A DNA stretch of 64,000 nucleotides from a virus (IMGVR_UViG_3300035034_002381:64001-128000); one strand, 5' to 3'; counted from the first letter of the stretch, positions 1 through 59,790 are shown. Notes: generated by a model not told the origin, from the sequence alone. Numbers and translations: made by a program.

Positions 1-1230
1 GTTTTAGTTTATCATTCTGAAGTAAATGTGACCGATAAAGTTTTTAAATTAGAAGCAGATTATTCAGGTGGGTTCGACATGTTTGAATTAATCACAGGAC
101 CCCTTGATTACTCTGAAGCTCGCAAAACTATCATTAGTGTTTTAGATTGGATAAGTTTGTATGGATATACAAATGATCGTTGTTCTATACATCTAAATGT
201 TTCTTTTGGGCCCAAATTAAAATCAACAATTGAAGTCACAGATCTAAACGTACTTAAGTTTATTCTTAACTTTGACGAAAAAAGGGTATATGAATATTTT
301 CCAGAACGTGAAAATTCTGTGTATGCAAAAAGTATCAAAAAGGATTTAGAACATACGATTTTTTTCCAGAATTATATACCAGTAGATTTTAATTTACAGG
401 ATTTGGTAAAAGTTCCTAATGAAAAATACTATGGAATAAACTTTCTCAAGAAAAATGATAATTATATAGAATTTAGATATTTAGGTGGAAAAAATTATGA
501 AAACAGAACTCCCAAGATATTAGAGATGATGGACTTCTTTATACAGAGTTTATTCTATAATATTAATCATCCTGAATATACCCAAGAAGAAGAAAACAAA
601 CTGAAAAACTTATTTAAGATTTTCCAGAAAAATTTACGAAGTATTAACGCATATCATAATTTTAAAAAGGATTATAAAGATGTAAATATAAGTATTGATC
701 TAAAAAGAGATGATCAAGTAATTGTCACTTATTGGGAACATATTAAATACCGCGTTTTTGATTTAGTCGCAAGATGTGGAGTTAAAAAAGGTCAAATCAA
801 TTATGATACCGAAGTGGGTAAATTGCAAATCTTTGAGTGTGATATGACTTATGCATCAATTACTGATTTAGACGTTATTAAATGTAAGATATCAAATTCG
901 AATGTGACTAGGTGTGAATTGTTTTATAATAAAATAGACAACTCGATAATTCATAATGCGAATGCTGTTAGAGAAAATGAGTTTGAAGATTGTAAAATTA
1001 AAGACACTAATCTTTATGCGACAAATATATGTAAAGATTGTGTAATCGAAAATGAGATACATACTATTAATGGTCAGTTCATTAATGGCATAATTAGAAA
1101 AGGAACTGTGGGTTCGTTAGCTAAATTAGATGGTACTATTCAAGTCGAAGAACAAATCGCAAAAAATACCAAGCCAGATAAAAAAATTATCAAGGACTGG
1201 AAGTGGTTAAAAAGTATACAAAAAACATGA
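1..1230 (+). CDS. Putative amidoligase (COOH-NH2 ligase-like), 5'-truncated by window edge
   Basis: Frame is open from base 1. Motifs ELITGP, CSIHLNVSF, KYYGINF and IEFRYLGG fit phage amidoligases. The C-terminus has short periodic beta-helix-like repeats. Confidence 0.65.
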   Translation, partial: VLVYHSEVNVTDKVFKLEADYSGGFDMFELITGPLDYSEARKTIISVLDWISLYGYTNDRCSIHLNVSFGPKLKSTIEVTDLNVLKFILNFDEKRVYEYFPERENSVYAKSIKKDLEHTIFFQNYIPVDFNLQDLVKVPNEKYYGINFLKKNDNYIEFRYLGGKNYENRTPKILEMMDFFIQSLFYNINHPEYTQEEENKLKNLFKIFQKNLRSINAYHNFKKDYKDVNISIDLKRDDQVIVTYWEHIKYRVFDLVARCGVKKGQINYDTEVGKLQIFECDMTYASITDLDVIKCKISNSNVTRCELFYNKIDNSIIHNANAVRENEFEDCKIKDTNLYATNICKDCVIENEIHTINGQFINGIIRKGTVGSLAKLDGTIQVEEQIAKNTKPDKKIIKDWKWLKSIQKT

Positions 1231-2141
1231 ATAAATTAAAAACTTTCCAAGAATTTATCAATGAATCTGAAGTCAATGAAAAGATGGCTTTGATTGATTA
1301 TAATAATTATGCGCAAATAATTCTTGACGCATTTAATGCAGCACCTAAATTTGATAGGTCCGCGACTAAACATTGGGATTCACTCTTAGATTCTTCAAGG
1401 GACTGGTATAAACGCATGATGTCAGATATTGAAATCGAAATGGTTGATAAAGAAGTTTATAACAGTGTACCTGAAATGATTAAGCGAGTTAAAGCGGAAA
1501 AGAAAATTTATGTGACTCGGGAATATAGAGATCATCCATATTGGAATGACGAAGAATATCGTATGTTTAGAGCTGTACATGATTATATAGTTCATGTTTT
1601 AGGAAAATCCAATTTCGATTTAAGAGGTGAAATGAAAGCAACAAATTTACATATGAAACTTATTCCTGAACTTGCAAAACCCGCGTTATTTATGGAAATA
1701 CCTTGTAATGTAGCAAATATAATTATTACTGGTAAAGCTCCTGACCAAATTAAAATAGCTGCATTAAATCAATTTGATTTCGAAAATATTGGTAACGTAG
1801 AAGGTTATGAGGTTGTCAATAAAAAATTAGTAAAAACAACAAATGAAAATATTGACGAGTCAAAATCTAATATAATAGGACAAACTAAATCCAGTAAAGA
1901 AATTTATTTAAACCCATCATTAAGTGATGTGGATGATTATACCAAGGAAGACCATAAAGAAGCAGCTGCTTTACATCATACATTATATACTGAAGCACCC
2001 AAAAATATGAGAAATCATAAAAAATATCAGAATCATAAAAGACAAGCCAAGTTCCACTCTGATTGGTCCAGCGGAAAGAGCGATAAGTCGACAAGTTATG
2101 GAAGTGTAAAAAACTTCACACCTACAAAAAGAACAATATAA
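1227..2141 (+). CDS. Leader-bearing putative internal head protein (MNKLKTFQEFINE), multi-module
   Basis: ATG at 1227 gives the leader. Contains an FRAVHDxxxH...GE motif and an internal TNENIDES linker. Confidence 0.6.
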   Translation: MNKLKTFQEFINESEVNEKMALIDYNNYAQIILDAFNAAPKFDRSATKHWDSLLDSSRDWYKRMMSDIEIEMVDKEVYNSVPEMIKRVKAEKKIYVTREYRDHPYWNDEEYRMFRAVHDYIVHVLGKSNFDLRGEMKATNLHMKLIPELAKPALFMEIPCNVANIIITGKAPDQIKIAALNQFDFENIGNVEGYEVVNKKLVKTTNENIDESKSNIIGQTKSSKEIYLNPSLSDVDDYTKEDHKEAAALHHTLYTEAPKNMRNHKKYQNHKRQAKFHSDWSSGKSDKSTSYGSVKNFTPTKRTI

Positions 2142-2146
2142 ATACA

Positions 2147-2668
2147 ATGAAAAATTTAAAAACATTTGACGAGTTTGTCAACGAAAAGAAGAAAGATACA
2201 TACGCAGAAGAACTTACTAAACTTGAAGGAAGACTTTTTGATTTAGGAAGCAACAAACTACATAATCCAACTACTGAAGCAGGTAAGCGGAAATTAAAAG
2301 CCCAACTTGAGAAAAGAATAAAAAAAGTTAAAGAAAAGCTTAGCGAAGGTATCATCAACGAAGGATCATACGAGGATTTTATTTCTACTTATGGTAAAGA
2401 AGTCAAAAGTCTCATAAAAACAATTGAGAAGATTGGTAAACAATGGGAGAAGGGTGAAATTTTAGACGACTCAGTACAAGCAGCGTTTGTGAAGATTGAT
2501 AAGATTTATGACCCAGAAGTCGGTCGTTTGATAGACAGTATTTTGGGTGGCCGAAGTATTGTACAGGACGTTGGTCAAACTGCAATAGATATACTAAACA
2601 AATATGGTACCGAGCCGATGCAAGTTGTGAATGCAATGAGCGAATTCACATACAATAAATTCAAATAG
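2147..2668 (+). CDS. Leader-bearing putative internal head protein (MKNLKTFDEFVNE)
   Basis: N-terminal leader; an internal LSEGIINEG linker separates two modules. Confidence 0.6.
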   Translation: MKNLKTFDEFVNEKKKDTYAEELTKLEGRLFDLGSNKLHNPTTEAGKRKLKAQLEKRIKKVKEKLSEGIINEGSYEDFISTYGKEVKSLIKTIEKIGKQWEKGEILDDSVQAAFVKIDKIYDPEVGRLIDSILGGRSIVQDVGQTAIDILNKYGTEPMQVVNAMSEFTYNKFK

Positions 2669-2723
2669 GTAAATGAATCTGGTGTGCAGTGGGATGCTAA
2701 TAAGAAAAAATAAATAAAAGGTA

Positions 2724-3467: not shown

Positions 3468-3818
3468 ATGAAAACATTTAAAGAATTTATTAACGAGGGT
3501 TATGAAGATCTGCGAGATGAAGTTGCCCAGGCTGAATTTGGAATGGATTATGATCAATTAGGACCAGGAGAAAAAGAATGGGTGCGTGATGAATTAAACG
3601 AAAATGAGATTGAAGGAGGACTTTCTGACGGAAAGTCTATCGAGGACATTGCTGATAAACATGGAGTTTCACAAAAAGTTATCCAGGATCAATTAAAAAA
3701 GGGAATAAAGGTTGAAATGGAACATACAAATAGTAAAAACCAAGCCGAGGAAATTGCATTAGATCATTTGGTAGAAATGCCTGATTATTACGATAAGTTA
3801 GAAAAAATAGAAAAATAA
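3468..3818 (+). CDS. Leader-bearing protein (MKTFKEFINE) with DUF5661-like C-terminal module
   Basis: Leader is nearly identical to T4 internal-protein starts. QLKKGIKVEMEHT...EIALDHL.E.PDYY.KL module. Confidence 0.6.
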   Translation: MKTFKEFINEGYEDLRDEVAQAEFGMDYDQLGPGEKEWVRDELNENEIEGGLSDGKSIEDIADKHGVSQKVIQDQLKKGIKVEMEHTNSKNQAEEIALDHLVEMPDYYDKLEKIEK

Positions 3819-3820: not shown

Positions 3821-4072
3821 GTGGATTATTGTATAAGCTATAAAATATTGTATGAAAGTAGAGCTACACACATAGATATTAACAAATTACCAAAAAAGGA
3901 ATTTGATTATCTTATGAGATATTTACAATCTCCAACTCACATGGGAAAATTTGATGATGCCAAATATTATAGTTTGCGCACAGGTATTGATGTAGCTGAT
4001 TTACTTATTATGAAAATAGCACATGGAGACAAAAAATCTGTAGATTCGTTTAGAAAATATCATACTGTATGA
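3821..4072 (+). CDS. Hypothetical protein, weak leader variant
   Basis: GTG start, tightly packed ORF; begins VDYCISYKILYES. Confidence 0.45.
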   Translation: MDYCISYKILYESRATHIDINKLPKKEFDYLMRYLQSPTHMGKFDDAKYYSLRTGIDVADLLIMKIAHGDKKSVDSFRKYHTV

Positions 4073-5061
4073 ATAAGTTATTAAAATTCAAAGAATTTTC
4101 CCAGGATCCTAAAATACAAATATTGATGCGAGGGACTATTGGTCTAACATCAAAGGCAGATGAATTAGTTACAAAACTAATGAAAGAACTTTATGATGAT
4201 TGGATTCATTTAGTTTTAATCAAAAAATATCAGGATTATAATCGAGCAGAAAGAATACCAGATAATCGCAGATGGAATGATATAAACTATTCATTACCTA
4301 TATTGAATATGACTTCTAGACCACATGTACTCTTAGAAAACCCACGGGCAAAAATCTATAATAAAATACATGATTATCCAGTATCTGCAGATAAAGTCAT
4401 GTTTTCAAAAATTTTTAGTGGCTCTAAATTTTTACCCAAAACAGTTTTTCAAGAAAGAGAAATTAACCAATTAGAATTTCCAATTATTGCTAAGCCTAAA
4501 GCAGGTTTTTCGGCTCAAGGAATTGAATTGTTTAAAACAAAGGAAGAAGCTTTAGAATCTATGACAGAATTTGATCTATGGTCAGAAGCTAAAAATATTA
4601 AGACAGAGTTTAGATTGTTTATTATGAATGGTGAAATAATTCATTTAGCCGAAAGAATAAAAAATTCTAAAAATGATAAATCTGTAGGATCAAAGGATAA
4701 AGACGAAAAAATTGATCTTGTTTATATTGACCAAGATTGGAAAACATTTCCAGAAAATTTAAAGTCAAAATTACTTATTCTACATGAAGAAGTAAAACAA
4801 AAGGTTAATTTAGATTTTTATGATATTGATTTAATCTTAGATACTGAGGAAGAGTTTTGGGTACCTGAAATAAACGGTGCGCCAGGCATTGGACCTTCTA
4901 TGTTTTCTGCTATTTATACAGCATGGATAGAAATGACTCTTAATAGACCACCTAAAGAATCAACAATACAAAGATTAAATCAAATCAGAGATATTCATCG
5001 GGAGTTTATGAAAAATACTTACAAAAAGGAATATCAGGTATCGATTAATCCTGTGAAATAG
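4069..5061 (+). CDS. RimK-like ATP-grasp ligase with partial leader (MNKLLKFKEF)
   Basis: ATP-grasp motifs FPIIAKPKAGFSAQGI, EFRLFIMNG, DIDLI and VPEINGAPG. Confidence 0.75.
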   Translation: MNKLLKFKEFSQDPKIQILMRGTIGLTSKADELVTKLMKELYDDWIHLVLIKKYQDYNRAERIPDNRRWNDINYSLPILNMTSRPHVLLENPRAKIYNKIHDYPVSADKVMFSKIFSGSKFLPKTVFQEREINQLEFPIIAKPKAGFSAQGIELFKTKEEALESMTEFDLWSEAKNIKTEFRLFIMNGEIIHLAERIKNSKNDKSVGSKDKDEKIDLVYIDQDWKTFPENLKSKLLILHEEVKQKVNLDFYDIDLILDTEEEFWVPEINGAPGIGPSMFSAIYTAWIEMTLNRPPKESTIQRLNQIRDIHREFMKNTYKKEYQVSINPVK

Positions 5062-14730: not shown

Positions 14731-15108
14731 ATGAAAAATTTAAAATCATTCAAAGAAAAAGAACGCCAAGAAAAAGTCGCATTTATATGGAAATCAAAGA
14801 ATTTACATTTTACACATCAAGGTAAATCACCAGCGTTAAAGAGTCTCAAAGCTTTTGCAGCAGAATTTAATGAGTATATCAAAATTTCCCATCCTAATCT
14901 TAATAGCCCTCGACTTCTACATGCTATGAATTTCAAACCAGCAGGATCAATAACTTTGAATATTGGTAAAGGTATTCAAAAAAATGTTATTGCTCTGAAA
15001 TATGGTACGCGGAATAATCCAGTTGAACCTAATAGTCCTGATAGTGTAATAGAAAGATTAATCGATTTTTATCCGTTGTTTCTTGATAAAAAGTTATTGT
15101 TGAATTAA
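14731..15108 (+). CDS. Hypothetical protein with partial leader (MKNLKSFKE)
   Basis: Leader-like N-terminus; packed ORF. Confidence 0.5.
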   Translation: MKNLKSFKEKERQEKVAFIWKSKNLHFTHQGKSPALKSLKAFAAEFNEYIKISHPNLNSPRLLHAMNFKPAGSITLNIGKGIQKNVIALKYGTRNNPVEPNSPDSVIERLIDFYPLFLDKKLLLN

Positions 15109-15111: not shown

Positions 15112-15948
15112 ATGAAAATTAAGAAGTTTTCTGAGTTTTTATTTGAAAAAGAAAATGTCAAGGAATTGAGATTATGCTTTGTTGGAGATATTATGCAACA
15201 TGATAAAGTCGTGACTGACGATTCATTCGAAAACGTGAGGTCACTTCTAAAATCTGCTGATATCTGTGTGGGAAATTTAGAAACTATAATTACTGGTGAA
15301 AACAATAATGAAATAATTGATGGGCAAATTAAATTTAGTGCTGATGAAAGTCTTATCAAAGTTTTAAAAAATGTTGGCTTCACACATTTATCTCTCATTA
15401 ACAATCATTCACTTGACTATGGAATCGCAGGATTTCAAAAATCACAGACTGCGGTTGCTAAAGAAATAAAAATACTTAGTAAAGAAACAGAAATTTCCAA
15501 GAATGATCATAAGATCAATCTAGTTAACTTTACTACACATGTTAATAATAATATTAATAATGAATTTTCGGATCATCTAATGACACCTGACGGTTATTCT
15601 AGTAAAGCTAAGAGCATTAATATAGGATATATCCATTGGGGAGGGCAATATAACCCTAAACCCGATTCTGAACAAAAATCTCTAGCATCTAATCTAATTA
15701 ATAATGGATATCCTATTGTTATTGGTTCAGGCCCACACGTTAATCATAAAGTTGTTCGAGATGGTGAATCGATTATTGCGTATTCTTTAGGAGATTTTAT
15801 AAGTAAACACAATGATGATAGAGCTAAAGATCAAGGAAAGATTTTGATTATAGATTTTAAAAATGATATCATTGATAATGTTATGGTTTATACGACACAG
15901 ACCGATAAGAATAACGTTATCCAAATTAAAAAAAGAGAAATAATTTAG
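15112..15948 (+). CDS. CapA/PGA_cap-family metallophosphoesterase-like protein with leader (MKIKKFSEFLFE)
   Basis: CapA motifs FVGDIMQH, GNLET, NNHSLDYG, IHWG, GPHV and YSLGDF. Confidence 0.8.
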   Translation: MKIKKFSEFLFEKENVKELRLCFVGDIMQHDKVVTDDSFENVRSLLKSADICVGNLETIITGENNNEIIDGQIKFSADESLIKVLKNVGFTHLSLINNHSLDYGIAGFQKSQTAVAKEIKILSKETEISKNDHKINLVNFTTHVNNNINNEFSDHLMTPDGYSSKAKSINIGYIHWGGQYNPKPDSEQKSLASNLINNGYPIVIGSGPHVNHKVVRDGESIIAYSLGDFISKHNDDRAKDQGKILIIDFKNDIIDNVMVYTTQTDKNNVIQIKKREII

Positions 15949-15988: not shown

Positions 15989-17242
15989 ATGAAAAGAAAC
16001 ATATTATCATTTAGCGAATTTTTGCTCGAGTCTGTCGCAATACCCCAAGATGTTACAAAGTCAATAGCAGAATTTCATAAATTACAATCAGAAATAACTC
16101 GAGTTACTGCAGAACTTGAATTTCTAAAAGATGAATTTAAAGAGTTCGACGAGATGGTCGATCCTGTACTCACAGGATTAAAGGAGACTAACAAAAAAAT
16201 TGCGATTACTGAGGGTTATGCAATTAAAATTTCTCGTTTTGGTTATGAACGCACAAATAAATCTTATGCTAAAGCTTTTAAAATGGCTTTATCGAAAGTT
16301 AATAAGTCAACTCAAAAAATTCTAAGTGAGGCATTGGAAGCTTCTGCAACTACGTCAAAGATAAAATCCTCATATTCGATTGATAAATTATCAGAAGGTG
16401 AAATTAACGAGGCAGGAATTTGGGCTAAGATTGGAAAGGCGATTAAAGGTGTAGTCGGAAAATTTCTAAATATTTTTAAAAGAGAAATCAAAACTATTGA
16501 TCAATCAAATAATGAACTTGAAAAACTTGCAAGTCAATTAAGCGAATCTATTGATGAAAAAAAATCCGAAATTGAATCTATCAATGAAGCCATGAAAGAT
16601 ATTTCTAGACTAGAAAGTATTAAAAAGAAATCTGGTGGAAATCCTAATAAAGCTGCTATGTATGCTCGAAATATGGCCAAGTCTATTAAAGATAAACATA
16701 AAGCTTATGCCCGAGGAAAGGCGGCAATCGAAGTTTTTGGTGACGAGGGCGGAGAATTGGCAAGAATCTTTTTTGATAAAGCTAAAACTTTAGGTTATGA
16801 TATTGCTAAATCAGAATATCAAGATTTGAAGGTTATTGAAAAACCGATGCCAAGAACTTTGAAAAAAGGAAAGGATTTAACAGAAGCTAAAAAGCACGAT
16901 GGTAGAGAAGGATCTTCATGGGGTCATGGTCGTGATGGTGATCCAATTTTACCTATAGGTTCTGTTAATTTTATCAGTGGAAAAAATAAATATTTTAATG
17001 TTTATGAAACCTGGCCAGACAGTGTTTTGGAAATTTGGAAGACTAGAGATGGTAAATATCGAGCAGTCTGTACAGCGGGTAAAGGACCTATTTATAAAAT
17101 AGGCACAAGTAATTCGTTTATTCATGATCAAAACAGTAGATATTTATTTGGTGGTGAAATGGTTGATTGGGTAGAAGTTGAAGGTATGATGAATCTTGTA
17201 GATCTTTATGGTAAATCAATGCCCACATACACATATAAATAA
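15989..17242 (+). CDS. Leader-bearing polyprotein-like internal protein (MKRNILSFSEFLLES)
   Basis: Leader plus internal LSEGEINEA, LSESIDE, INEA and LTEA linkers. Confidence 0.6.
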   Translation: MKRNILSFSEFLLESVAIPQDVTKSIAEFHKLQSEITRVTAELEFLKDEFKEFDEMVDPVLTGLKETNKKIAITEGYAIKISRFGYERTNKSYAKAFKMALSKVNKSTQKILSEALEASATTSKIKSSYSIDKLSEGEINEAGIWAKIGKAIKGVVGKFLNIFKREIKTIDQSNNELEKLASQLSESIDEKKSEIESINEAMKDISRLESIKKKSGGNPNKAAMYARNMAKSIKDKHKAYARGKAAIEVFGDEGGELARIFFDKAKTLGYDIAKSEYQDLKVIEKPMPRTLKKGKDLTEAKKHDGREGSSWGHGRDGDPILPIGSVNFISGKNKYFNVYETWPDSVLEIWKTRDGKYRAVCTAGKGPIYKIGTSNSFIHDQNSRYLFGGEMVDWVEVEGMMNLVDLYGKSMPTYTYK

Positions 17243-17253: not shown

Positions 17254-18852
17254 ATACTAAATTTCAAAGAACATTTAAACGAATCTAAAAGCGATTTCGT
17301 GGTTTATCATAATCAGTATTCAACAGCAATTAATGAGGGTGAAAAATATGCGAAAGCTAGAGGTTATGAATTAGATCAACAGGAATATTCAAATGCGTAT
17401 TTAGACGCATTCTTTAAACCTGAAGAAGGTAAGACTAAAAAGGATAGTTTTAAGCTTTTTAAAAATGATAAAGAACAAAGAAAACAACTACATGTTCAAA
17501 TATACAATCGCGGTATGAAAAAGTTTGAACTAAATATGTACATAAACAATAAAAAACTAATGAAAAGAAATCTTAAATTATTTGAAGAATTTATAAATGA
17601 ATCTTTTTGGTCTTTATCTAAATTAGGTGATAAATTCGATCAATTATTATCAAAAGAACTTAAAAAAATTAAAGGCTGCATATTTTATGTGAAAGGAAGA
17701 GATTTATATTGTAATGATGAATTACTTTTTAAAATAAATGGTGATAAAGATTCTGTAGAAAGTATTGTCAAAAAAGTTAGATTAAAGTTGAACGAATCTT
17801 TAATTAATGAAAAAGAATCTTATGAAAGAGGTTGTGCCATGCTATACTTTGAAAGTAATTGCACCAAAGAGGTTCGTGAGATGATTAAAGAAGAGGATTT
17901 ATATGTTGAGGAAGGCGATGTTTCTTTTGGTAAAGAAACAGAACCTCATTGTACTTTACTTTATGGGTTTGATAAAAAGGTAGAAGCAAATGAAGCATTG
18001 AAAATTTGTGAGAATTTTACATTTGAAGCATGTGAAGCACATAACATTTCTTTATTTGAATCTAAAAAATATGATGTTTTGAAATATGATATCAAAGGTA
18101 AAAATATTAAGGAATGTAATGAAGCCCTTTCTGATTTACCCTTTGAATCTGATTTTCCTGATTTTCACCCTCATATGACTGTTGCATATCTTCAACCAGG
18201 TAAAGGAAAGGAATATACTAAAATGATTAAAGAGTCTCATGCAAGATTGCAAGTGAATCCAGAAAAAATTGTTTATTCTCATCCTAATGGTAAGAAAGAA
18301 GAAATCCAAGTTTTAACGGAAGTTAAAGAAAATGAAAAAGATAATCCTTGCTGGGATGGTTATGAAATGATCGGTATGAAAACTAAAAATGGTAAAAAAG
18401 TTCCTAATTGCGTACCTATAGATGAATCAATTACCGAAAGTCGTGGGCCTAATAGTTTTGAACACTATTTTAAAAACGCCAAGAAAAAACTATCTAGATC
18501 CGGTTTCAAGATAAAAGAAGTTAAAGATACTTATATTAAAGATCATACTGCTATTGTTATTATTTATACTGAGTCTGGTCCAGGTGGTGGAGATAATGAA
18601 TGGATACAAATATTTTATAATACTGAGGAAGAAAGAAAGAAGATTTATAAAGAGTTTGATATCGATGAATCTGTAAGCGAAGGGAAAAAGGATGATAAAA
18701 AAGGCTGGTATAAGGATAAGAAAAAATGGAATCAGGCAAGAAAAAAACTAACTAATGTAGCCGATGACAATGAAATCTGGAGCAAAAATGCGGATGCAGA
18801 TATTATTGCCTTTTGGTATGACGAAAAAGACGAAGGTTGGGTACAAAAATAA
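17254..18852 (+). CDS. Leader-bearing polyprotein containing an Acb1/gp57B-like 2H phosphoesterase
   Basis: In-frame ATA at 17254 gives (M)LNFKEHLNES. A second leader MKRNLKLFEEFINES starts at 17560. HCTLLYG and HMTVAY are the two HxT motifs. A CWDGY...VPNCVP module follows. Confidence 0.65.
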   Translation: MLNFKEHLNESKSDFVVYHNQYSTAINEGEKYAKARGYELDQQEYSNAYLDAFFKPEEGKTKKDSFKLFKNDKEQRKQLHVQIYNRGMKKFELNMYINNKKLMKRNLKLFEEFINESFWSLSKLGDKFDQLLSKELKKIKGCIFYVKGRDLYCNDELLFKINGDKDSVESIVKKVRLKLNESLINEKESYERGCAMLYFESNCTKEVREMIKEEDLYVEEGDVSFGKETEPHCTLLYGFDKKVEANEALKICENFTFEACEAHNISLFESKKYDVLKYDIKGKNIKECNEALSDLPFESDFPDFHPHMTVAYLQPGKGKEYTKMIKESHARLQVNPEKIVYSHPNGKKEEIQVLTEVKENEKDNPCWDGYEMIGMKTKNGKKVPNCVPIDESITESRGPNSFEHYFKNAKKKLSRSGFKIKEVKDTYIKDHTAIVIIYTESGPGGGDNEWIQIFYNTEEERKKIYKEFDIDESVSEGKKDDKKGWYKDKKKWNQARKKLTNVADDNEIWSKNADADIIAFWYDEKDEGWVQK

Positions 18853-18859: not shown

Positions 18860-18892
18860 ATGAAAACATTTAAAGAATTCTTAAACGTTTGA
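18860..18892 (+). pseudogene. Leader-only mini-ORF MKTFKEFLNV*
   Basis: ATGAAAACATTTAAAGAATTCTTAAACGTTTGA; the first 20 nt are identical to the start of ORF 3468. Confidence 0.6.
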
Positions 18893-52349: not shown

Positions 52350-52598
52350 ATGGAATATGTTAAACTATACGAAGATTTTAATCCTTCAGTAAGTAGACAA
52401 AGAAATAATGAACGCAAAAAGAAATTAGTCGAAAGATATAAAAGGCGTGATGAACAAATCAAAAACACCAAAGATAAAGGAGACGAATCTAAAGCTAACT
52501 TGTATACTAAACGAAAGGAAGTTGATAGATTAGAAATCCAGAAAATTGATGTTAAAAACGAAATTATCAATATCAAGGAAAAAAGAAGAAAGAAATGA
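52350..52598 (+). CDS. Basic small protein with partial leader (MEYVKLYEDF)
   Basis: Preceded by the AATATATA promoter variant at 52338. Confidence 0.5.
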   Translation: MEYVKLYEDFNPSVSRQRNNERKKKLVERYKRRDEQIKNTKDKGDESKANLYTKRKEVDRLEIQKIDVKNEIINIKEKRRKK

Positions 52599-52843
52599 AA
52601 AAATTTGAAGAATTTGTAAACGAAAAAATAGTATTTGGTATTTATGACAAATTTAAAAATACATCGGTAGGTGCAAAAGAATTTGCTTCTGCAATCAGCT
52701 CAGATGATGATGCAGTAGAGGCGTCAATAGATTTTTTAGATGCTATGGAAATTTGGTTTAAAAAAACCCAAAAAGGAAATTGGGAAGATGTTCAACAAGA
52801 ACTAGCAGACAATATTCCTAATGATATAGAATCGTATAGATAA
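52595..52843 (+). CDS. Leader-bearing small protein (MKKFEEFVNE)
   Basis: Clear leader. Confidence 0.6.
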   Translation: MKKFEEFVNEKIVFGIYDKFKNTSVGAKEFASAISSDDDAVEASIDFLDAMEIWFKKTQKGNWEDVQQELADNIPNDIESYR

Positions 52844-52857: not shown

Positions 52858-53033
52858 ATGAAAAAATTTGAAGAATTTGTAAACGAAGGATCAACTTTCG
52901 ATAGTATCGCTGATCATTTGAGAAACAAAAAAATATCAGATGCTGTTTATAAAAAGGAACAATGTCATTATTATTAGACGATAATAGCACTCTAGAATTT
53001 ACATTTAATGACAATACTAAAATAAAAAGATAA
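52858..53033 (+). pseudogene. Leader-bearing small gene (MKKFEEFVNE), apparently frameshifted
   Basis: Stops at 52977. A -1 shift in TATAAAAAGG continues as KGTMSLLLDDNSTLEFTFNDNTKIKR* to 53033. Confidence 0.5.
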
Positions 53034-53035: not shown

Positions 53036-53266
53036 ATGAAATCATTTACAAAATTTGTAGAAACAACAAGATCACTTAACGAAAAGGAAGATCTAGAAAA
53101 GGAGTATAAAGAAGTCTTTGATGCTCTATTAGATAAATACGAAGTATCTTCACCCGCAGAACTTAGCGACGAAAAGAAAGCTGAATTTTTTGATGAAATT
53201 AAAAAACATTATACTGCAGGTAAAGGCGCAACCGATAAAGGCGAAGATCTTGTAGGAAAGGAGTAA
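53036..53266 (+). CDS. Leader-bearing small protein (MKSFTKFVE..SLNE)
   Basis: YKEVFDALLDKYEVSSPAELSDEKKAEFF module. Confidence 0.6.
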   Translation: MKSFTKFVETTRSLNEKEDLEKEYKEVFDALLDKYEVSSPAELSDEKKAEFFDEIKKHYTAGKGATDKGEDLVGKE

Positions 53267-54540
53267 TGCAATACGTCCACGGATATACACAATTTCTTAA
53301 TGAACAATTGATAATGGAAGGTGGCGCTTTTGGTCACCTTCATCATCCATTTGAAGATCATAGTTTAACATTTAATGATTTATCAGAAATGATAGAATTA
53401 ACTGTAACTGGAGCGTTTAATCAAAACAATTTTGTTCAAGAAAAAACTGATGGTCAAAATCTCATGTTTACATGGAAAAATGGCGAAATACGTGGTGCCC
53501 GAAGCAAGAAACATTTAAGAAATCAAGGTGAAAACTCATTATCCAAACAAGAAATAAGTCAAATGTATTCTGGTCGTGGTGAAATTTTTACAGCATTTAC
53601 AGAAGCTATTAATGATTTAGAATCAGCAATTAAAAGTCTTTCTTCTAAACAAAAAGATAGAATTTTTTCTGAAGGAAGTAAATTCATGAGTGTAGAAATT
53701 ATTACACCTATGACACAAAACACGGTACCATACGGTTTATCAATGTTAGTCTTCCATGGTACTAATGAATATGATATCGAGGGCAATGTTTTAAATCAAT
53801 ATAAAACTGAGGCTAAAATTCTTGCAGGAATGATTAAGCAAATAAACCAAGACGTACAAAATACGTTCTTTATCCGTGGTCCGCAAAATATTAATTTAGA
53901 AGCTTTACCCAATACTGCTAAAAAGAAAAATTACTATCAAGGTAAGCTACGTAAATTAGTAAATAAATACAATTTGTCTATGTCAGATTCTATACCAGAT
54001 TATTTGTATAAAGTATGGCGAGATAAAACTATTGACATTTTATCTAATAAAAATTATACAGAAGAAATAATCGATGGATTAGCTATGCGCTGGGGTAAAA
54101 AACAAAAATCATATTCAATACCTAATATCAAAAAAGATCTTGGTTCAGAATTTTCTGATTGGGTCAAAAACTTTGAAAAGCGTGGCGGAGAGTATGATAA
54201 ACTCTGGAAAGAATATATTGCACCTGTCGAAGGTTTATTTTTAGAACTTGGTGCAGATATTTTAACCAATATTGAAAGTTTCTTAACAGCAGATCAAAGA
54301 AATGCGACTGAAGAAATGCGTCAAGAAATTGAAAGTACAATAGAAAAGATTAGAAATTCTGATGATGTTACAGCTATTGAAAAGTTGGAACATCAATTAC
54401 AAAGAATTGATACAGCAGGTGGACTAAAAAGATTAGTGCCTTCTGAAGGTATTACATTTTTATATAAAGGAAAACTCTATAAATACACAGGACTATTTGC
54501 TGCTATTAATCAAATAGGTTCACTCATAAGATATAACTAA
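53266..54540 (+). CDS. Leader-bearing RNA/DNA-ligase-fold nucleotidyltransferase (KxDG)
   Basis: MQYVHGYTQFLNE leader; GGAFGHLHHPFED; motif I EKTDG; C-terminal EGITF..KYTG. Confidence 0.65.
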   Translation: MQYVHGYTQFLNEQLIMEGGAFGHLHHPFEDHSLTFNDLSEMIELTVTGAFNQNNFVQEKTDGQNLMFTWKNGEIRGARSKKHLRNQGENSLSKQEISQMYSGRGEIFTAFTEAINDLESAIKSLSSKQKDRIFSEGSKFMSVEIITPMTQNTVPYGLSMLVFHGTNEYDIEGNVLNQYKTEAKILAGMIKQINQDVQNTFFIRGPQNINLEALPNTAKKKNYYQGKLRKLVNKYNLSMSDSIPDYLYKVWRDKTIDILSNKNYTEEIIDGLAMRWGKKQKSYSIPNIKKDLGSEFSDWVKNFEKRGGEYDKLWKEYIAPVEGLFLELGADILTNIESFLTADQRNATEEMRQEIESTIEKIRNSDDVTAIEKLEHQLQRIDTAGGLKRLVPSEGITFLYKGKLYKYTGLFAAINQIGSLIRYN

Positions 54541-55394
54541 TGACAACTGTTGAAAATACGAAAGTTTTAAAAGAATTTACGCAACCTATTCTTAACTCAG
54601 ATGTTCCAGAAGTCTTGGGATTTTTGAATAAATATATTTTGCCTGAAATAGGACTATACGGATTAGATGAAGATGCAACAATAATTGGTTCTGCTGGAAA
54701 AAAGTTATTAAATCAAACCAGCGGTGATATAGATATTGCAATCTTACGAGGTTCCGTTGCTAAACATTTTGATAGGGATGATGTATTAATGGCTATACAT
54801 GAAAAACTTTCATCAATGGGATATAGAACAAATATTCAGAAAGGATTTAGTCAAGTTAACTTTGCTCTTCCAGCACCAAATGGGTTTGTTCAAGTTGATT
54901 TAATGATCACTGATAATTTGGATTGGGCAAAATTTGTTTTTCATTCTCCAGATTATACTAAATCTGAATCAAATTATAGGGGTGTCTACCGAGGAATGTT
55001 ATTAAATGCTGTTGCATCTGAAATTGTTAAAAAAACAGTCAAAAAATTAGATGGGGAAATTGAGGAATATGAACAATATGTAATACGTTCTACCTTTGGT
55101 TTATTTAAAGTACGTAAAACTCTTTTAGGAAAAAATGGTAAGCTAATCAAGACACCTAAACTTTTAGATAAATATGAGCAACGCATCTCCAATAATCCTA
55201 TTGATGCTGTAAAATTACTTTTTGGTAAAGACGTTAGAATCGATGATATAAGTACATTTGAAAAAATGTTGAATGTAATCAAGAGTCAAAAATTCTTATA
55301 TCCTGGAAAGGTTGGAATTATCAAAAATAAATTTATGTGGTATCTTGGAAAAACCAATTTAAATATACCATCAGAAATAACTAATATACCATGA
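54540..55394 (+). CDS. Pol-beta-superfamily nucleotidyltransferase
   Basis: IGSAGKK...SGDIDIA and third acidic residue in VQVDLM. Confidence 0.75.
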   Translation: MTTVENTKVLKEFTQPILNSDVPEVLGFLNKYILPEIGLYGLDEDATIIGSAGKKLLNQTSGDIDIAILRGSVAKHFDRDDVLMAIHEKLSSMGYRTNIQKGFSQVNFALPAPNGFVQVDLMITDNLDWAKFVFHSPDYTKSESNYRGVYRGMLLNAVASEIVKKTVKKLDGEIEEYEQYVIRSTFGLFKVRKTLLGKNGKLIKTPKLLDKYEQRISNNPIDAVKLLFGKDVRIDDISTFEKMLNVIKSQKFLYPGKVGIIKNKFMWYLGKTNLNIPSEITNIP

Positions 55395-55831
55395 AACATA
55401 TAAAATCATATAAAGAAATTCTTAACGAGTCTATTAATTCTCGAGTACGTTCAAAAATTGTTAAGTTACTCAAGACTCAAGGAATTCAGCATAAAGTAGA
55501 TTATGAATATTCTGCTGGACATTTTTTGGTGCCTACTATAGAAGCAGCTGAAGATATTGCTGATGCGATCGGTGATAAATTTCATGTGACTATTTTAGAT
55601 AGAAAGGGTAAAGAAGGAAATACACTTGTAATGATAACTGAAGATGTTAATGAGGCTATCGATTATATGGAAATGGATTATAATTCAAGAAAAGAAATTC
55701 TTAAAAAAACCTTTCCAGATCTTATGGAAGATTCAGTAAAAGATTACGCTTTAAAAACATTTAAAGAATTACCGCCAGAAATGCAAAAAGAAATAGCTGA
55801 ACAATATAACGTAATACTAAAAGATCAATGA
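55391..55831 (+). CDS. Leader-bearing two-module protein (MKHIKSYKEILNES)
   Basis: Leader; internal ITEDVNEA linker. Confidence 0.6.
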   Translation: MKHIKSYKEILNESINSRVRSKIVKLLKTQGIQHKVDYEYSAGHFLVPTIEAAEDIADAIGDKFHVTILDRKGKEGNTLVMITEDVNEAIDYMEMDYNSRKEILKKTFPDLMEDSVKDYALKTFKELPPEMQKEIAEQYNVILKDQ

Positions 55832-56571
55832 AAAATTTTGTAAGTTTCTCAAACTTTGTTAATGAATCTCAAAAAGATACACAGGGAAATACACCTGTCA
55901 ATATTTTGATTGGTAGATTTGATCCCTTCCATATCGGGCATTATTCTGCTGCGAAAGAATTAGTTGATAAAAATGGCTATCCTGTAGTAATTGTTTCTGT
56001 TAGAGGAAAGGGAGATTTTGGAAAGGGTACAACAGTAAGTAAAGAACTTTTTGATAAAATGGTTTCAAAGCTTGTAAAGACTGTGCCATTTATTAACGGA
56101 CACATAGAAATAACTAATGTTTCTTTTGATAAACAATTGTTTGTGAATCTTAGACCTAAGTATGAACCTGTACTTTTAGGAGCAGGCGCAGACAGAATCA
56201 AAGGATATACTGCGCAAATGAATTCTTTCAGAGACAAAAAGGGCAATGTAATTAATATGCGCCAAGATTTTGATGTAGTTCAAACTTCACGAAAAGCAAG
56301 TGGCACTGAGGTCCGTGAAATAATTTCTAAAAAAGATAAAAAGAATTTCTTAAGATTAATGCCTAAAGAACTTCATAATTTTTGGGATGAACTGGTCAAA
56401 GAACTTAATGAGACAAAAAGACCATTATCTTACCATATTGATATATATGATAAGGCCATACAAAAATTGGTAGAAAGTAAGAAAAAAGATAACAAAACTA
56501 TTTCAACAATAGAAAGATTAATAGTGGAGAAGACTAAACTAATCCAAAATTATTCTGATCTTATTAAGTAA
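55828..56571 (+). CDS. Leader-bearing HIGH-motif cytidylyl/adenylyltransferase-like protein
   Basis: MKNFVSFSNFVNES leader; IGRFDPFHIGH; GAGADR; ASGTEVR. Confidence 0.8.
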   Translation: MKNFVSFSNFVNESQKDTQGNTPVNILIGRFDPFHIGHYSAAKELVDKNGYPVVIVSVRGKGDFGKGTTVSKELFDKMVSKLVKTVPFINGHIEITNVSFDKQLFVNLRPKYEPVLLGAGADRIKGYTAQMNSFRDKKGNVINMRQDFDVVQTSRKASGTEVREIISKKDKKNFLRLMPKELHNFWDELVKELNETKRPLSYHIDIYDKAIQKLVESKKKDNKTISTIERLIVEKTKLIQNYSDLIK

Positions 56572-58358: not shown

Positions 58359-58364
58359 AAAAAC

Positions 58365-59315
58365 ATGAAAAATATTAGATCATTTCGAGAATTTGAAGCT
58401 TTAACCGAAGCTAAGAAATTTTATACTACAAAGGATATTGTAAAAATGGCAAAAAATGCTGGTGATATTGTCATAGATGCCAAATACGCAATTGAGGATT
58501 TGGGAGTAGCTTATGGAAATAAAGTACCATCAACTGAATTGGATAGAGTTTTGACTCAATATGATTTAGAATTAGAAGATTTAAATGAGGGTCGTAAAAA
58601 AATCCAACTTAAAAGAAAATATGGAGAACGTTCTGCAGTTACCGCCGGTAAGCGTGCACCTGTCAGAGATAGGATATTAGGAAAAATCGCTGAGTCTGAA
58701 GAAGGCAGAATGTCCAGAAGTTCATTACAAGCATTTATCGCATCCACAAACGAAGATTCAGGTAGAAAAACCACTTTTTCATGGGTCCGAAAAAACTCAC
58801 GATATTTTAAAACTGTTAAAGAATCTGGTACAACATACTATAAATTAAGTATGTATGGTAAGCGTGCACTAAAGCGCGGAAATCTTAATGAATCTGAATC
58901 TTTAAATGAAGGACAGTTTTCTTGGTTGACTCAAGATGGTGGGACTCAAATTGGAAGTGAAAGAAAAAATACTATAACCGTTTATATGTTTGATGACAAA
59001 GGAAATAAATGGGAAGAAAGAAGTTATGAGGGTTATGGAGAATTTGGTGGAAAAGATTATTTTGATCTTTTAGCTGAAATGAATGGTTATTCTCAAGAAG
59101 ATGCTAAAAGTAAAAGTCGTAAAATAGGCGAAGATCTTCGCGAAATAGGTATTGATCTAATGTATGATAAAGGTATTAAACCTAAAAATGGTGGTAAGGT
59201 ATTATTTCCAGCTTTAGTTTCAAATAAAAATTACAATTGGAAACGACACGATTTTACAAAACAACCCGAATACGATCCTAACCAAGGTTGGTATACTGAA
59301 GATTACGGTTGGTAA
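58365..59315 (+). CDS. Leader-bearing three-module polyprotein (MKNIRSFREFEALTE)
   Basis: Modules separated by LTE|A, LNE|G and LNESESLNE|G. Confidence 0.6.
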   Translation: MKNIRSFREFEALTEAKKFYTTKDIVKMAKNAGDIVIDAKYAIEDLGVAYGNKVPSTELDRVLTQYDLELEDLNEGRKKIQLKRKYGERSAVTAGKRAPVRDRILGKIAESEEGRMSRSSLQAFIASTNEDSGRKTTFSWVRKNSRYFKTVKESGTTYYKLSMYGKRALKRGNLNESESLNEGQFSWLTQDGGTQIGSERKNTITVYMFDDKGNKWEERSYEGYGEFGGKDYFDLLAEMNGYSQEDAKSKSRKIGEDLREIGIDLMYDKGIKPKNGGKVLFPALVSNKNYNWKRHDFTKQPEYDPNQGWYTEDYGW

Positions 59316-59328
59316 AAAAACAAATATT

Positions 59329-59790
59329 ATGAAAAAATTTAATGAAACTGAAGCAAGTCCAGTAAATACTCCAGGTATGGGAAATGTTGTTCCAGGAGAA
59401 GTAGGATCTGGTGATGATTTTGGTGATGAAGAAGAAGAAGAAAAAGTTCGCCGAAAAAGACTTAAAAATCTTAGAACATTTGAAGAATTTGAAACAGCAG
59501 GTATCAACGAGGGTAGAACATATGAGGGACGGCCAATAACTCCTTCAATTTATACTACTGCTGATATTAGAAAACCTATCACTAAGAGATCACAGCTTAA
59601 AGATGGCATGAATGTTATGATATTAGACCATGGATTAAACCAATGGATAGCTTATATGAGATATATCGGATTTGAACAATTTATGCATAAATTTAATTCT
59701 GCTAGCCAATATGAAGACATGGTTTTCGATTATTCGACAGAAGAATTAGAAGATGCTATTAAGAATGGCGAGATTCTTATGATGAAATAA
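59329..59790 (+). CDS. Leader-bearing two-module protein (MKKFNE; internal LKNLRTFEEF..INE)
   Basis: NTPGMGNVVPG..GSGD module followed by a second, internal leader. Confidence 0.55.
   Translation: MKKFNETEASPVNTPGMGNVVPGEVGSGDDFGDEEEEEKVRRKRLKNLRTFEEFETAGINEGRTYEGRPITPSIYTTADIRKPITKRSQLKDGMNVMILDHGLNQWIAYMRYIGFEQFMHKFNSASQYEDMVFDYSTEELEDAIKNGEILMMK

What the first reader, a model, noticed from the sequence alone, without database searches (positions are those of the whole stretch)
1227..59790. About 20 unrelated genes share a T4 capsid-targeting-like N-terminal leader: a candidate large virion-delivered cargo arsenal
Seen: leaders of form M(K/N)xx(K/R)(T/S)(F/Y)xEFxNE start ORFs at 1227, 2147, 3468, 15112, 15989, 17254, 18860, 18918, 20583, 28821, 52595, 52858, 53036, 53266, 55391, 55828, 58365 and 59329. 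Partial versions occur at 4069, 14731 and 52350, and weak ones at 3821, 19351 and 45208. The downstream domains are unrelated. No neck, baseplate, tail or replication gene carries the leader. Known: T4 internal proteins use an approximately 10-aa capsid-targeting sequence (MKTYQEFIAE type) removed by prohead protease gp21 after (I/L)xE, and IPI* is injected to inhibit the GmrSD nuclease. Inference: this phage tags enzymes and small proteins for packaging and injection at infection, on a far larger scale than T4. Whether this expansion is already described in related jumbo phages is unverified.
Basis: partly seen in the sequence, partly recalled or inferred. Interest (0 to 1): 0.9.

Follow-up and report, generated by a model that had tools for sequence, protein, structure and literature searches.

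The report
Capsid-loading leader on many phage genes
About a sixth of the genes of this large uncultured T4-related phage start with the short address tag that phage T4 uses to load proteins into its head. The tag ends in the same three residues that recur in the phage's own head-protease substrates, so these proteins, several of them enzymes, are probably packed into the virus particle, though no virion has been analysed.

Summary
A leader M-K-x(0-4)-[KT]-[FY]-x-[EQ]-F-[ILV]-N-E opens 10 intact genes and 2 remnants in the window at high confidence, and about 8 more in diverged form. Genome-wide it opens about 19 strong and about 10 diverged genes out of roughly 190. Start 17254 has no ATG, and the real leader there is at 17560.

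The T4 reading is well supported by sequence:
- The genome, outside the window, encodes an S77 (gp21-type) prohead protease with the catalytic His and Ser, a gp23-type capsid protein and a gp20-type portal.
- T4 IPI starts MKTFKEF, as window gene 3468 does.
- The four T4 tag positions shown by mutagenesis to matter are the conserved ones here.
- [ILV]-N-E, which ends the leader, occurs 12 times in the scaffold-like tail of the protease protein (p = 2e-8) and twice in the capsid-protein propeptide.
- In 118 homologues of gene 53266, a variable extension ends in [LIVM]-x-E directly before the invariant body.

Cargo includes an RNA-ligase-like enzyme, a 2H phosphoesterase (Acb1/LigT-like), a nucleotidyltransferase and a CapA-like phosphoesterase.

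Packaging, cleavage and injection are not shown. The mechanism is known from T4; the scale and the cargo are new. This scan had already noted the leader in this genome's preceding window and in other genomes.

The parts
1227..2141 (+). Leader gene, 304 aa, MNKLKTFQEFINE; body matches phrog_3170 (function unknown)
   Evidence: HMM score 20
2147..2668 (+). Leader gene, 173 aa, MKNLKTFDEFVNE; no family match
   Evidence: best HMM score, 22.8
3468..3818 (+). Leader gene, 116 aa, MKTFKEFINE (first 7 residues identical to T4 IPI); body is DUF5661, a domain that in Vibrio phage VPs20 lies under a gene annotated as a DUF2213 domain-containing protein
4069..5061 (+). Diverged leader, MNKLLKFKEFSQD, with no hydrophobic-x-Glu end; 330-aa ATP-grasp-like protein
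   Evidence: HMM score 4; weak
14731..15108 (+). Partial leader, MKNLKSFKEKE; 125 aa
   Evidence: score 9.7
15112..15948 (+). Leader gene, 278 aa, MKIKKFSEFLFE; CapA/PGA_cap metallophosphatase-type body. Close homologues carry the leader; more distant ones start directly at the body.
15989..17242 (+). Leader gene, 417 aa, MKRNILSFSEFLLE; coiled-coil-like body; preceded by GATATATA
17254..17559 (+). In-frame stretch with no ATG (starts at ATA, ILNFKEHLNES) that runs without a stop into the next leader gene. It is either a decayed leader gene or the N-terminal part of a two-leader polyprotein; this is unresolved.
   Evidence: public gene call starts at GTG 17299
17560..18852 (+). The body is a 2H phosphoesterase (Acb1/LigT-like) with HCTL at residue 130 and HMTV at 205. 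Residues 262-287 form a DUF3721-type PCWDGY...VPNCVP module.
18860..18892 (+). Leader remnant: MKTFKEFLNV followed by a stop
20583..21191 (+). Variant leader, MKRKLKTYDMFLE; 202 aa. Its homologue in relative G005 has a canonical leader, MFKKFRQFINE.
28665..28783 (+). First copy of a tandem duplication of about 119 nt holding the GATATATA motif and an ATG-less leader start
28821..29228 (+). Leader gene, 135 aa, MKNIKTFNEFITE; preceded by GATATATA
52595..52843 (+). Leader gene, 82 aa, MKKFEEFVNE
52858..52977 (+). Short leader ORF, 39 aa, MKKFEEFVNE
53036..53266 (+). Longer IPI-like variant, MKSFTKFVETTRSLNE; 76 aa
   Evidence: compare T4 IPI, MKTFKEFTSTTTPVSTITE
53266..54540 (+). Leader gene, 424 aa, MQYVHGYTQFLNEQLIME then GGAFGH. 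It belongs to a conserved family of more than 1000 proteins with an RNA-ligase-like fold and an invariant KxDG motif.
55391..55831 (+). Leader gene, 146 aa, MKHIKSYKEILNE
55828..56571 (+). Leader gene, 247 aa, MKNFVSFSNFVNE; cytidylyltransferase-like nucleotidyltransferase with a HIGH motif at residue 35
58365..59315 (+). Diverged leader, MKNIRSFREFEALTE; 316 aa; GATATATA lies 38 nt upstream
59329..59790 (+). Short leader, MKKFNETE, then NTPGMGNVVP (the same motif follows SLNE in the capsid-protein propeptide) and an acidic run; 153 aa. This is a possible head-core protein. Its homologue in G005 carries a canonical leader.

Best explanation
The leader is a capsid-targeting propeptide of the T4 kind.

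Proposed mechanism:
- The tagged proteins are made alongside the head proteins.
- The N-terminal tag docks them onto the scaffolding core of the prohead. The aromatic and Phe positions correspond to T4 CTS residues 4 and 7. The core here is the long C-terminal tail of the protease protein.
- Once the shell has closed, the gp21-type serine protease cuts after the Glu of [ILV]-N-E (T4 CTS residues 8 and 10). This frees the mature protein inside the head.
- The same protease, at the same tripeptide, dismantles the scaffold tail and trims the capsid protein.
- The freed proteins stay with the DNA and at least some enter the host at infection.

Shown by sequence: the tag, its selection at the amino-acid level, the T4-type head machinery, the shared tripeptide in the presumed substrates, and the detachable nature of the tag.

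Inferred, not shown: docking, cleavage, retention in the head, ejection, and any counter-defence role.
For: (1) The motif is strongly tied to gene starts.
- Odds ratio 41, p = 1e-18.
- An HMM built only from a relative's leaders finds 19 hits on the + strand and none on the - strand.

(2) Selection acts on the protein, not the RNA or DNA.
- The Glu codon is GAA 8 times and GAG 7 times, against 85:15 genome-wide.
- The aliphatic position uses at least 8 different codons.

(3) T4-type head genes are present.
- Peptidase_S77, E = 5e-12, with GELDHP and SISSRA aligned to T4 gp21 H85 and S140.
- Gp23, E = 4e-35, and Portal_T4, E = 6e-65 (catalytic residues from PMC12991175).

(4) T4 sequences read from the T4 record match the leader: IPI is MKTFKEF..., IPII and IPIII are MKTYQEFIAE. 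T4 mutagenesis places targeting at CTS residues 4 and 7 and processing at 8 and 10 (PMC9026906). These are four of the best-conserved columns of the leader (the Lys two residues before the aromatic is as conserved).

(5) [ILV]NE is concentrated in the presumed protease substrates.
- It occurs 12 times at residues 165-645 of the 691-aa protease-scaffold protein, where 1.4 are expected (Poisson p = 2e-8). This is the top protein in the genome.
- The capsid protein has LLNE at residues 3-6 and SLNE|A at 40-43.
- The site that closes the protease domain is RINE|S here and aligns with ITE|S in T-even-type gp21.
- As a positive control, the same enrichment test with [ILV]xE[AS] picks out gp22 in two T-even-type contigs (p = 6e-8).
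- Relative L129 has 11 [ILV]NE sites in its protease-scaffold protein and QLNE/ALNE|A in its capsid protein.

(6) In 118 homologues of gene 53266, an N-terminal extension of 8-81 residues ends directly before the invariant GGAYGH. At that junction P3 is L/I/V/M in 117 and P1 is Glu in 114. AlphaFold gives residues 1-22 a pLDDT below 50 and the body 85.

(7) The same bodies occur with and without the tag.
- CapA-like: 9 close homologues are tagged, 3 more distant ones start at the body, and bacterial-type ones carry a membrane anchor.
- Most homologues of the 2H phosphoesterase are tagged.

(8) The tag is widespread and goes with the protease.
- At least 120 IMG/VR stretches match KTFxEF[ILVM]NE, and 97 of 126 matches (by a strict count) lie at ORF starts.
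- All 5 long contigs tested encode an S77 protease.

(9) A strand-specific motif, GATATATA, occurs 30 times on the + strand and once on the - strand. It precedes the protease, baseplate, portal and tail genes, and also six leader genes or clusters, which fits co-expression with head genes.
Against: - There is no virion proteomics, N-terminal sequencing or expression data for this phage or any close relative. The cultured relative MA9V-2 has none either.
- The capsid-protein site SLNE|A does not fall in the same alignment column as the T4 gp23 cleavage site, so that site is predicted, not homologous.
- The GATATATA motif is only presumed to be a late promoter. Many leader genes have no copy of their own and lie among replication genes.
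- Several listed genes (4069, 14731) lack a hydrophobic-x-Glu end, so they could be targeted without cleavage or not at all.
- About 30 cargo species, some of 45-50 kDa, would have to share the head with 173 kb of DNA. Copy numbers may be low, and some may be core components that are degraded rather than cargo.
Confidence: 0.72

Rival explanations
1. The tag is a prohead-core or scaffold accessory signal. The tagged proteins enter the prohead and are cut, but most are degraded or expelled like scaffold fragments, or stay as structural internal proteins. They would not be an injected enzyme arsenal.
For: - Several tagged proteins carry extra internal [ILV]xE[AS] sites: 17560 has 7 and 15989 has 6.
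- Gene 59329 is small and acidic and shares a motif with the capsid-protein propeptide, as a core protein might.
- In T4, gp67 and gp68 are cut into fragments (PMC5694885).
Against: - Intact catalytic motifs are kept in several bodies: KxDG in the ligase-like family, two HxT motifs, and HIGH. This argues that the mature enzymes are used.
- The cargo set turns over quickly between relatives. Only 4 of 30 are shared with G005, as with the T-even internal proteins.
Confidence: 0.15
2. The shared start is a nucleic-acid-level feature, such as a translation-initiation-optimised A/T-rich 5' coding region or a recombination cassette that shuffles gene bodies. The peptide itself would have no function.
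For: - The region is A/T-rich and the genome shows no Shine-Dalgarno pattern.
- Leader remnants and a tandem duplication of promoter plus leader (18860, 28665-28783, genome position 7416) show that recombination or decay happens at these sites.
Against: - Synonymous codons vary freely, and the rarer GAG and AAC codons are over-used.
- The amino-acid pattern is kept across distant genomes and in T4.
- Highly expressed structural genes lack it.
- The hydrophobic-x-Glu junction in front of conserved bodies has no explanation at the RNA level.
Confidence: 0.04
3. The tag is a recognition leader for another enzyme or compartment, for example a modifying enzyme as in RiPP-like systems, or an export or localisation signal. 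It would be unrelated to the capsid.
Against: - The first seven residues are identical to T4 IPI.
- The tag's end matches the tripeptide enriched in this phage's own protease, scaffold and capsid proteins.
- An S77 protease was found in all 5 tagged long contigs tested.
- The Pfam and PHROG scans of neighbouring genes turned up no candidate modifying enzyme.
Confidence: 0.05

Closest known systems
Capsid targeting sequence (CTS) of phage T4 internal proteins IPI, IPII, IPIII and Alt, removed by the prohead protease gp21 (Mullaney and Black 1996, as reviewed in PMC9026906, PMC5694885 and PMC3012670)
   Same: - A 10-19-residue N-terminal tag of nearly the same sequence: MKTFKEF / MKTYQEFIAE in T4 against MK(x)nTFxEF[ILV]NE here.
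- The same functionally mapped positions are conserved (4, 7, 8, 10).
- It ends in hydrophobic-x-Glu, the gp21 site.
- It sits on unrelated, fast-turning-over proteins.
- It coexists with S77 protease, gp23-type capsid and gp20-type portal genes.
   Different: - Scale: about 19-29 tagged genes here and 28 in a relative, against about 4-6 in T-even-type genomes.
- A lineage-specific P2 residue (Asn) is shared with the scaffold and capsid-protein sites.
- A 3-4-residue insertion (MKNLK...) often precedes the aromatic.
- Cargo includes sizeable enzymes: ligase-like, 2H phosphoesterase, nucleotidyltransferase and metallophosphatase.
- The scaffold is fused to the protease rather than being a separate gp22.
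- There is no experimental evidence here.
Long N-terminal propeptides of inner-body and ejection proteins in phiKZ-like giant phages (SPN3US, 201phi2-1, phiKZ), cleaved by a gp21-related protease at S/A/G-x-E (PMC5694885, PMC7411985)
   Same: Many head-internal and ejected proteins are processed after Glu by a T4-related prohead protease, and the propeptides are inferred to target proteins into the prohead.
   Different: Those propeptides are 80-130 residues long, are not a shared short consensus tag, and use a small P3 residue. Here the tag is short, near-identical between genes, and of the T4 type.
T4 Acb1 (gene 57B) and LigT-type 2H phosphoesterases
   Same: Window gene 17560 matches Pfam Acb1 (3e-6) and phrog_755 (3e-9) and has the two HxT motifs.
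   Different: The score is barely over the Pfam cut-off (27.4 against 27 bits). It cannot be told apart from an RNA-end-healing LigT-type enzyme. It carries a leader, an extra N-terminal domain and a DUF3721-type module that T4 Acb1 lacks.

Membership tests
T4-type capsid targeting sequence (CTS) | Short N-terminal peptide with the conserved aromatic (position 4) and Phe (position 7) needed for targeting | tested here: met
   The column with F/Y and the column with F are among the lowest-entropy columns of 19 aligned leaders. T4 sequences come from the T4 record and the position mapping from PMC9026906.
T4-type capsid targeting sequence (CTS) | Ends in a gp21 cleavage site, (I/L)-x-E | tested here: met
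   Strong leaders mostly end in [ILV]-N-E, with variants LFE, LLE, ITE and ELE. Several diverged ones (4069, 14731) lack it.
T4-type capsid targeting sequence (CTS) | The genome encodes a gp21-family (S77) prohead protease with the catalytic His and Ser | tested here: met
   Genome 17120-19195: Peptidase_S77, 5e-12; phrog_207, 3e-40. GELDHP and SISSRA align with T4 gp21 H85 and S140.
T4-type capsid targeting sequence (CTS) | The tag is present on unrelated proteins and absent from tail, baseplate and replication proteins | tested here: met
   BLASTP of the bodies, annotation of untagged genes and the HMM scan.
T4-type capsid targeting sequence (CTS) | The tag is sufficient for packaging into the prohead and is removed by the protease | not testable with these tools
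   This needs virion mass spectrometry or reporter fusions. Indirect support comes from the junction analysis of 118 homologues and the shared tripeptide in scaffold and capsid protein.
T4-type capsid targeting sequence (CTS) | Mature proteins are ejected into the host with the DNA | not testable with these tools
   No data.
Acb1 (anti-CBASS 2H phosphodiesterase), for window gene 17560 | 2H fold with two H-x-T/S motifs, and a family HMM match over the cut-off | tested here: inconclusive
   HCTL at 130 and HMTV at 205. Pfam Acb1 scores 27.4 bits against a cut-off of 27, and 2_5_RNA_ligase2 and LigT also match. Activity on cyclic oligonucleotides was not tested.
ATP-dependent RNA ligase (Rnl1/Trl1-like), for window gene 53266 | Nucleotidyltransferase fold with motif I, KxDG | tested here: inconclusive
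   K60, D62 and G63 are invariant in 38 sequences. The top 20 or so Foldseek PDB matches are nearly all RNA ligases (one is a putative DNA ligase), but they are weak (best E = 1.7e-3, probability 0.96, TM about 0.25). There is no sequence-level PDB or Pfam match.

The most novel reading that the evidence does not exclude
This lineage of large T4-related phages of Bacteroidota-type hosts pre-loads its head with two to three dozen different proteins. Among them is an RNA-repair or anti-signalling set: an RNA-ligase-like enzyme, a 2H phosphoesterase and a nucleotidyltransferase. These would be delivered with the DNA to disarm host defences before any phage gene is expressed. If so, the injected proteome of thousands of uncultured phages can be read from sequence with a leader model plus the lineage's own protease tripeptide.
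Probability: 0.35. Interest if true: 0.8.

Novelty: new variant of a known kind. Interest (0 to 1): 0.62.

Why it matters
- If the tag works as in T4, it is a sequence-only marker for proteins carried inside virions. That would give a direct list of candidate first-strike effectors in uncultured phages.
- The list here holds enzymes of classes tied to counter-defence in T4: a 2H phosphoesterase of the Acb1/LigT kind and an RNA-ligase-like protein. Packaging them would change when and how such enzymes are thought to act.
- The tag's last three residues match the scaffold and capsid cleavage sites. This offers a way to infer each lineage's protease specificity, and so its cargo, without experiments.
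- The tag could also be used to load foreign proteins into heads of phages outside the enterobacterial T4 group.

Tried and rejected
- T4-type late promoter TATAAATA: 16 copies on the + strand and 15 on the - strand, with no link to gene starts. Rejected as this phage's late promoter; GATATATA took its place.
- Complex prediction of protease residues 1-220 with the first 40 residues of gene 2147: the verdict was "no answer" (score 0.00, controls not run). This is not evidence either way.
- The search for related loci with the single protease protein gave only one relative. I went on through the leader pattern and genome handles instead.
- The profile of the 53266 family found no significant sequence match in the PDB. 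Pfam found nothing for 53266, 55391, 58365, 59329, 19351 or 2147.
- BLASTP of T4 Acb1 and nrdC.11 against this proteome gave nothing significant.
- tblastn of the 17254-17559 stretch against all fetched loci gave no hit, so its status stays open.
- The cultured relatives PTm1, MaF61 and immuto have no F-x-x-F-[ILVFM]-N-E pattern above the control. The MA9V-2 paper reports no virion proteomics.
- The alignment of capsid-protein N-termini did not place SLNE|A in the column of the T4 gp23 cleavage site.

Full report
**What the window is.** The window is bases 64001-128000 of a single 173,506-base virus record with about 31% G+C. Nearly all genes lie on the + strand. The head genes lie outside the window:
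- A 691-aa protein at genome 17120-19195 whose first 200 or so residues are a gp21-type prohead protease (Pfam Peptidase_S77, 5e-12; phrog_207, 3e-40).
- Directly after it, a gp23-type major capsid protein (Pfam Gp23, 4e-35).
- A gp20-type portal at 150005-151603 (6e-65), a large terminase and a tail sheath.

Aligned with the gp21 of two T-even-type contigs, the protease keeps the residues corresponding to T4 gp21 His85 and Ser140, as GELDHP and SISSRA (residue numbers from PMC12991175). The nearest capsid proteins in the phage collection belong to an uncultured 462-kb phage, the Prevotella Lak phages, and Tenacibaculum, Chryseobacterium and Flavobacterium phages. This is therefore a distant T4 relative of the kind that infects Bacteroidota. 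PTm1 shows the same gene order of protease-scaffold, capsid protein and endonuclease-like gene.

**Checking the observation.** Translating from each listed coordinate confirms a shared start of the form M-K-x(0-4)-[KT]-[FY]-x-[EQ]-F-[ILV]-N-E at 1227, 2147, 3468, 15112, 15989, 28821, 52595, 52858, 53266, 55391 and 55828.

- 18860 is followed by a stop after ten codons.
- 3821, 18918, 19351 and 45208 show nothing, and 52350 is weak.
- 4069, 14731, 20583, 53036, 58365 and 59329 are diverged versions.

Statistics:
- A tight form of the motif fills 17 of 1488 positions in residues 3-10 of proteins, against 14 of 50253 elsewhere (odds ratio 41, p = 1e-18).
- To avoid circularity I built an HMM from the 28 leaders of another genome only (G005) and scanned all six frames of this genome. 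It gave 19 hits scoring 10 or more on the coding strand and none on the other strand. All but one sit at a Met.
- In the window this gives 10 intact genes and 2 remnants at high confidence. Genome-wide there are about 19 strong and about 10 diverged cases among roughly 190 genes.
- The bodies behind the leader are unrelated by all-against-all BLASTP, apart from one weak match between 55828 and its neighbour.
- The baseplate wedge protein, the very large structural proteins, PhoH, gp32, a GIY-YIG endonuclease, a helicase, DNA polymerase, the RNR small subunit and an epimerase in the window have no leader.

**Protein signal or nucleic-acid signal.** Codon by codon, the conserved Glu is GAA 8 times and GAG 7 times, where the genome uses 85:15. 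The Asn is AAC 7 times and AAT 4 times, where the genome uses 24:76. The aliphatic position is written with at least eight different codons. So the constraint is on the peptide.

**Comparison with T4, from the T4 record itself.** IPII and IPIII start MKTYQEFIAE and IPI starts MKTFKEFTSTTTPVSTITE. Window gene 3468 starts MKTFKEFINE. The review of Black's work reports that only the first ten residues of IPIII are needed for incorporation. Targeting depends mainly on residues 4 and 7, and processing on residues 8 and 10 (PMC9026906). gp21 cuts after Glu in I/L-x-E (PMC12991175). In the leaders here these four positions (aromatic, Phe, aliphatic, Glu) are among the best-conserved columns.

**An internal test: does the tag end in this phage's own protease site?** I counted [ILV]-N-E in every protein.
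- The protease protein has 12 copies, all at residues 165-645, behind the catalytic domain. About 1.4 are expected (p = 2e-8), and it is the top protein in the genome. This tail therefore looks like a fused scaffold with many cleavage sites.
- The first of these sites, RINE|S, aligns with ITE|S at the end of T-even-type gp21.
- The capsid protein has LLNE at residues 3-6 and SLNE|A at 40-43 in its N-terminal extension.
- As a positive control, the same enrichment test with [ILV]xE[AS] on two T-even-type contigs picks out the separate scaffold gp22 at p = 6e-8. [ILV]NE is not enriched there.
- The one close relative found through the protease (L129) has 11 [ILV]NE in an 812-aa protease-scaffold protein, and QLNE and ALNE|A in its capsid protein.

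So the tag's last three residues follow the lineage's presumed cleavage motif: Asn at P2 here, other residues in T-even phages.

**Comparative test of the propeptide idea.**
- Gene 53266 has more than 1000 homologues. In 118 of the best 120, the invariant body starts at GGA[YF]GH. It is preceded by an extension of 8-81 residues (median 26) that starts with the aromatic-x-x-hydrophobic pattern in 111 cases. The three residues directly before the body are L/I/V/M at P3 in 117 and Glu at P1 in 114, with Asn the commonest P2. A variable stretch ending in an invariant protease-type site at the edge of the conserved fold is what a cleaved propeptide looks like.
- AlphaFold on a 38-sequence alignment gives residues 1-22 a pLDDT below 50 and the rest a mean of 85.
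- For the CapA-like gene 15112, nine close homologues carry the leader, three more distant ones begin at the body (M..LHLLFAGDIMQH), and bacterial-type ones have a membrane anchor.
- Most homologues of the 2H phosphoesterase 17560 also start with the leader. A few have only a short ...[IL]NE stub or nothing.

The tag is therefore a detachable module.

**Distribution.**
By a strict count 97 of 126 matches lie at the start of an ORF, and several more follow a Met directly. Some of the exceptions are a conserved internal stretch upstream of a GPPG P-loop motif (my reading: a clamp-loader-type ATPase).
- All five long contigs tested have an S77 protease.
- A 254-kb contig of the same lineage (G005; capsid protein 44% identical, fused protease-scaffold) has 28 tagged genes. 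A 294-kb contig has 13 strict matches, all on one strand.
- Two T-even-type contigs have about 6 and 4.
- Only 4 of the 30 tagged proteins here have a homologue in G005, and 3 of those are tagged too. The cargo set therefore turns over fast, as the T-even internal proteins do (PMC3012670).

**What the cargo is.**
- 53266: a family with invariant K-x-D-G whose model matches almost only RNA ligases in the PDB (fungal Trl1, T4 Rnl1 and Rnl2, archaeal and Naegleria ligases). The matches are weak: best E = 1.7e-3, probability 0.96.
- 17560: a 2H phosphoesterase with HCTL and HMTV (Pfam Acb1, 3e-6; phrog_755, 3e-9). It could be an Acb1-type nuclease of cyclic signals or a LigT-type RNA-end healing enzyme. 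It also holds a PCWDGY...VPNCVP module (PF12518 type). In other phages this module is fused to portal proteins, S78 prohead proteases and DUF5661 proteins, which hints at a head-internal location.
- 55828: a HIGH-motif nucleotidyltransferase.
- 15112: a CapA-type metallophosphatase.
- 3468: DUF5661, a domain that in a Vibrio phage lies under a gene annotated as a DUF2213 domain-containing protein.
- 4069: ATP-grasp-like, with a weak leader.
- The rest have no family.

**Timing.** The T4 late promoter TATAAATA shows no strand bias. GATATATA occurs 30 times on the + strand and once on the - strand, mostly 4-40 nt before starts. It precedes the protease (and so the capsid gene), baseplate genes, the portal, tail genes and gp32. 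It also precedes the leader genes or clusters at genome 6577, 22890 (cluster 23236-26081), 46797, and window 15989, 28821 and 58365. I read it as the late promoter, but that is inference.

**What is not shown.** Nothing here demonstrates packaging, cleavage or ejection.
- The predicted SLNE|A site of the capsid protein is not in the alignment column of the T4 gp23 site.
- The complex prediction gave no verdict.
- No paper in the searchable library describes this expansion or gives proteomics for a leader-bearing relative.
- Chryseobacterium phage MA9V-2 is cultured and has four such genes around its protease and at its right end, plus a 1207-aa protease-scaffold protein with 16 [ILV]NE. It is the obvious test system.

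**Earlier notes of this scan.** Two follow-ups on the preceding window of this same genome (e1-1889958, e1-1835408) and several on other genomes (for example e1-1591152 and e1-4335524) reached the same reading. I re-derived the claim independently. New here are the tripeptide enrichment in the scaffold, the homologue-junction analysis, the tagged-versus-untagged homologues, the candidate promoter and the cargo folds.

**Verdict.** The T4-CTS interpretation is the best-supported one (about 0.7 for targeting plus cleavage; about 0.35 for a delivered counter-defence arsenal). It is a new variant of a known mechanism: much larger in scale, with a lineage-specific cleavage tripeptide and enzymatic cargo.

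Noticed in passing
whole genome; in the window e.g. 5080, 15962, 19303, 25647, 28676, 28795, 39527, 45196, 47006, 58319: GATATATA occurs 30 times on the + strand and once on the - strand, mostly 4-40 nt upstream of gene starts, including the protease, baseplate, portal and tail genes. It is a candidate late promoter that replaces T4's TATAAATA, which shows no strand bias here.
   Followed up: partly
window 28665-28933: Tandem duplication of about 119 nt covering the GATATATA motif and the 5' end of leader gene 28821. The first copy lacks the ATG and a 24-nt segment, and it overlaps the end of the 719-aa gene.
   Followed up: partly
window 17254-17559: A 102-codon frame opening at ATA with a leader-like ILNFKEHLNES and no ATG until 17515. 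It has no stop before the next leader gene. It is a decayed gene, a non-ATG start, or a two-leader polyprotein. The public gene call starts at GTG 17299.
   Followed up: partly
window 18343-18420 (residues 262-287 of gene 17560): A PCWDGYEMIGMKTKNGKKVPNCVP module (PF12518 type), 70-90% identical to copies fused to portal proteins, S78 prohead proteases, DUF5661 and Dps-like proteins in many uncultured phages. It is possibly a capsid-interior or DNA-binding module.
   Followed up: partly
window 59329-59790 and genome 19214-21007 (capsid protein): The small acidic leader protein has NTPGMGNVVP right after its short leader. The capsid protein has NTPGMGNVTP soon after its predicted SLNE|A site. 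Similar Gly-rich stretches follow the leader in several IMG/VR hits.
   Followed up: no
L166 (Flavobacterium phage immuto, MW353176.1, 93207-133416): This T4-like flavobacterial phage has two other families of shared N-termini: MKKSQLRxIIKEx on at least 4 genes, and MENxFDLKKFLVENKLT on 3 genes. These may be lineage-specific equivalents of the tag.
   Followed up: no
L171/L172 (Chryseobacterium phage MA9V-2, OR513085.1): A cultured phage with four leader genes (MKNFFSFINEA, MKTFTYFINEA, MKTFFTFVNES, MKNFFQFINES). One lies directly upstream of a 1207-aa protease-scaffold protein with 16 [ILV]NE sites.
   Followed up: partly
L128 (T4, NC_000866, genes 57B and ipI): T4 Acb1 (57B) starts MMEFKDF and lies next to ipI (MKTFKEF). 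The start resembles the first half of a CTS but has no hydrophobic-x-Glu end.
   Followed up: no
window 55828-58358: The tagged nucleotidyltransferase (55828) shares a 119-residue similarity (30% identity, E = 1e-7) with the C-terminal part of the untagged 593-aa neighbour at 56577.
   Followed up: no
genome 7416-7500 (outside the window): Another short leader-only ORF, MKTFKEFINESEYMVVNGK..., of about 25-30 codons. Together with window 18860 and 52858, it suggests frequent birth and decay of tagged genes.
   Followed up: no
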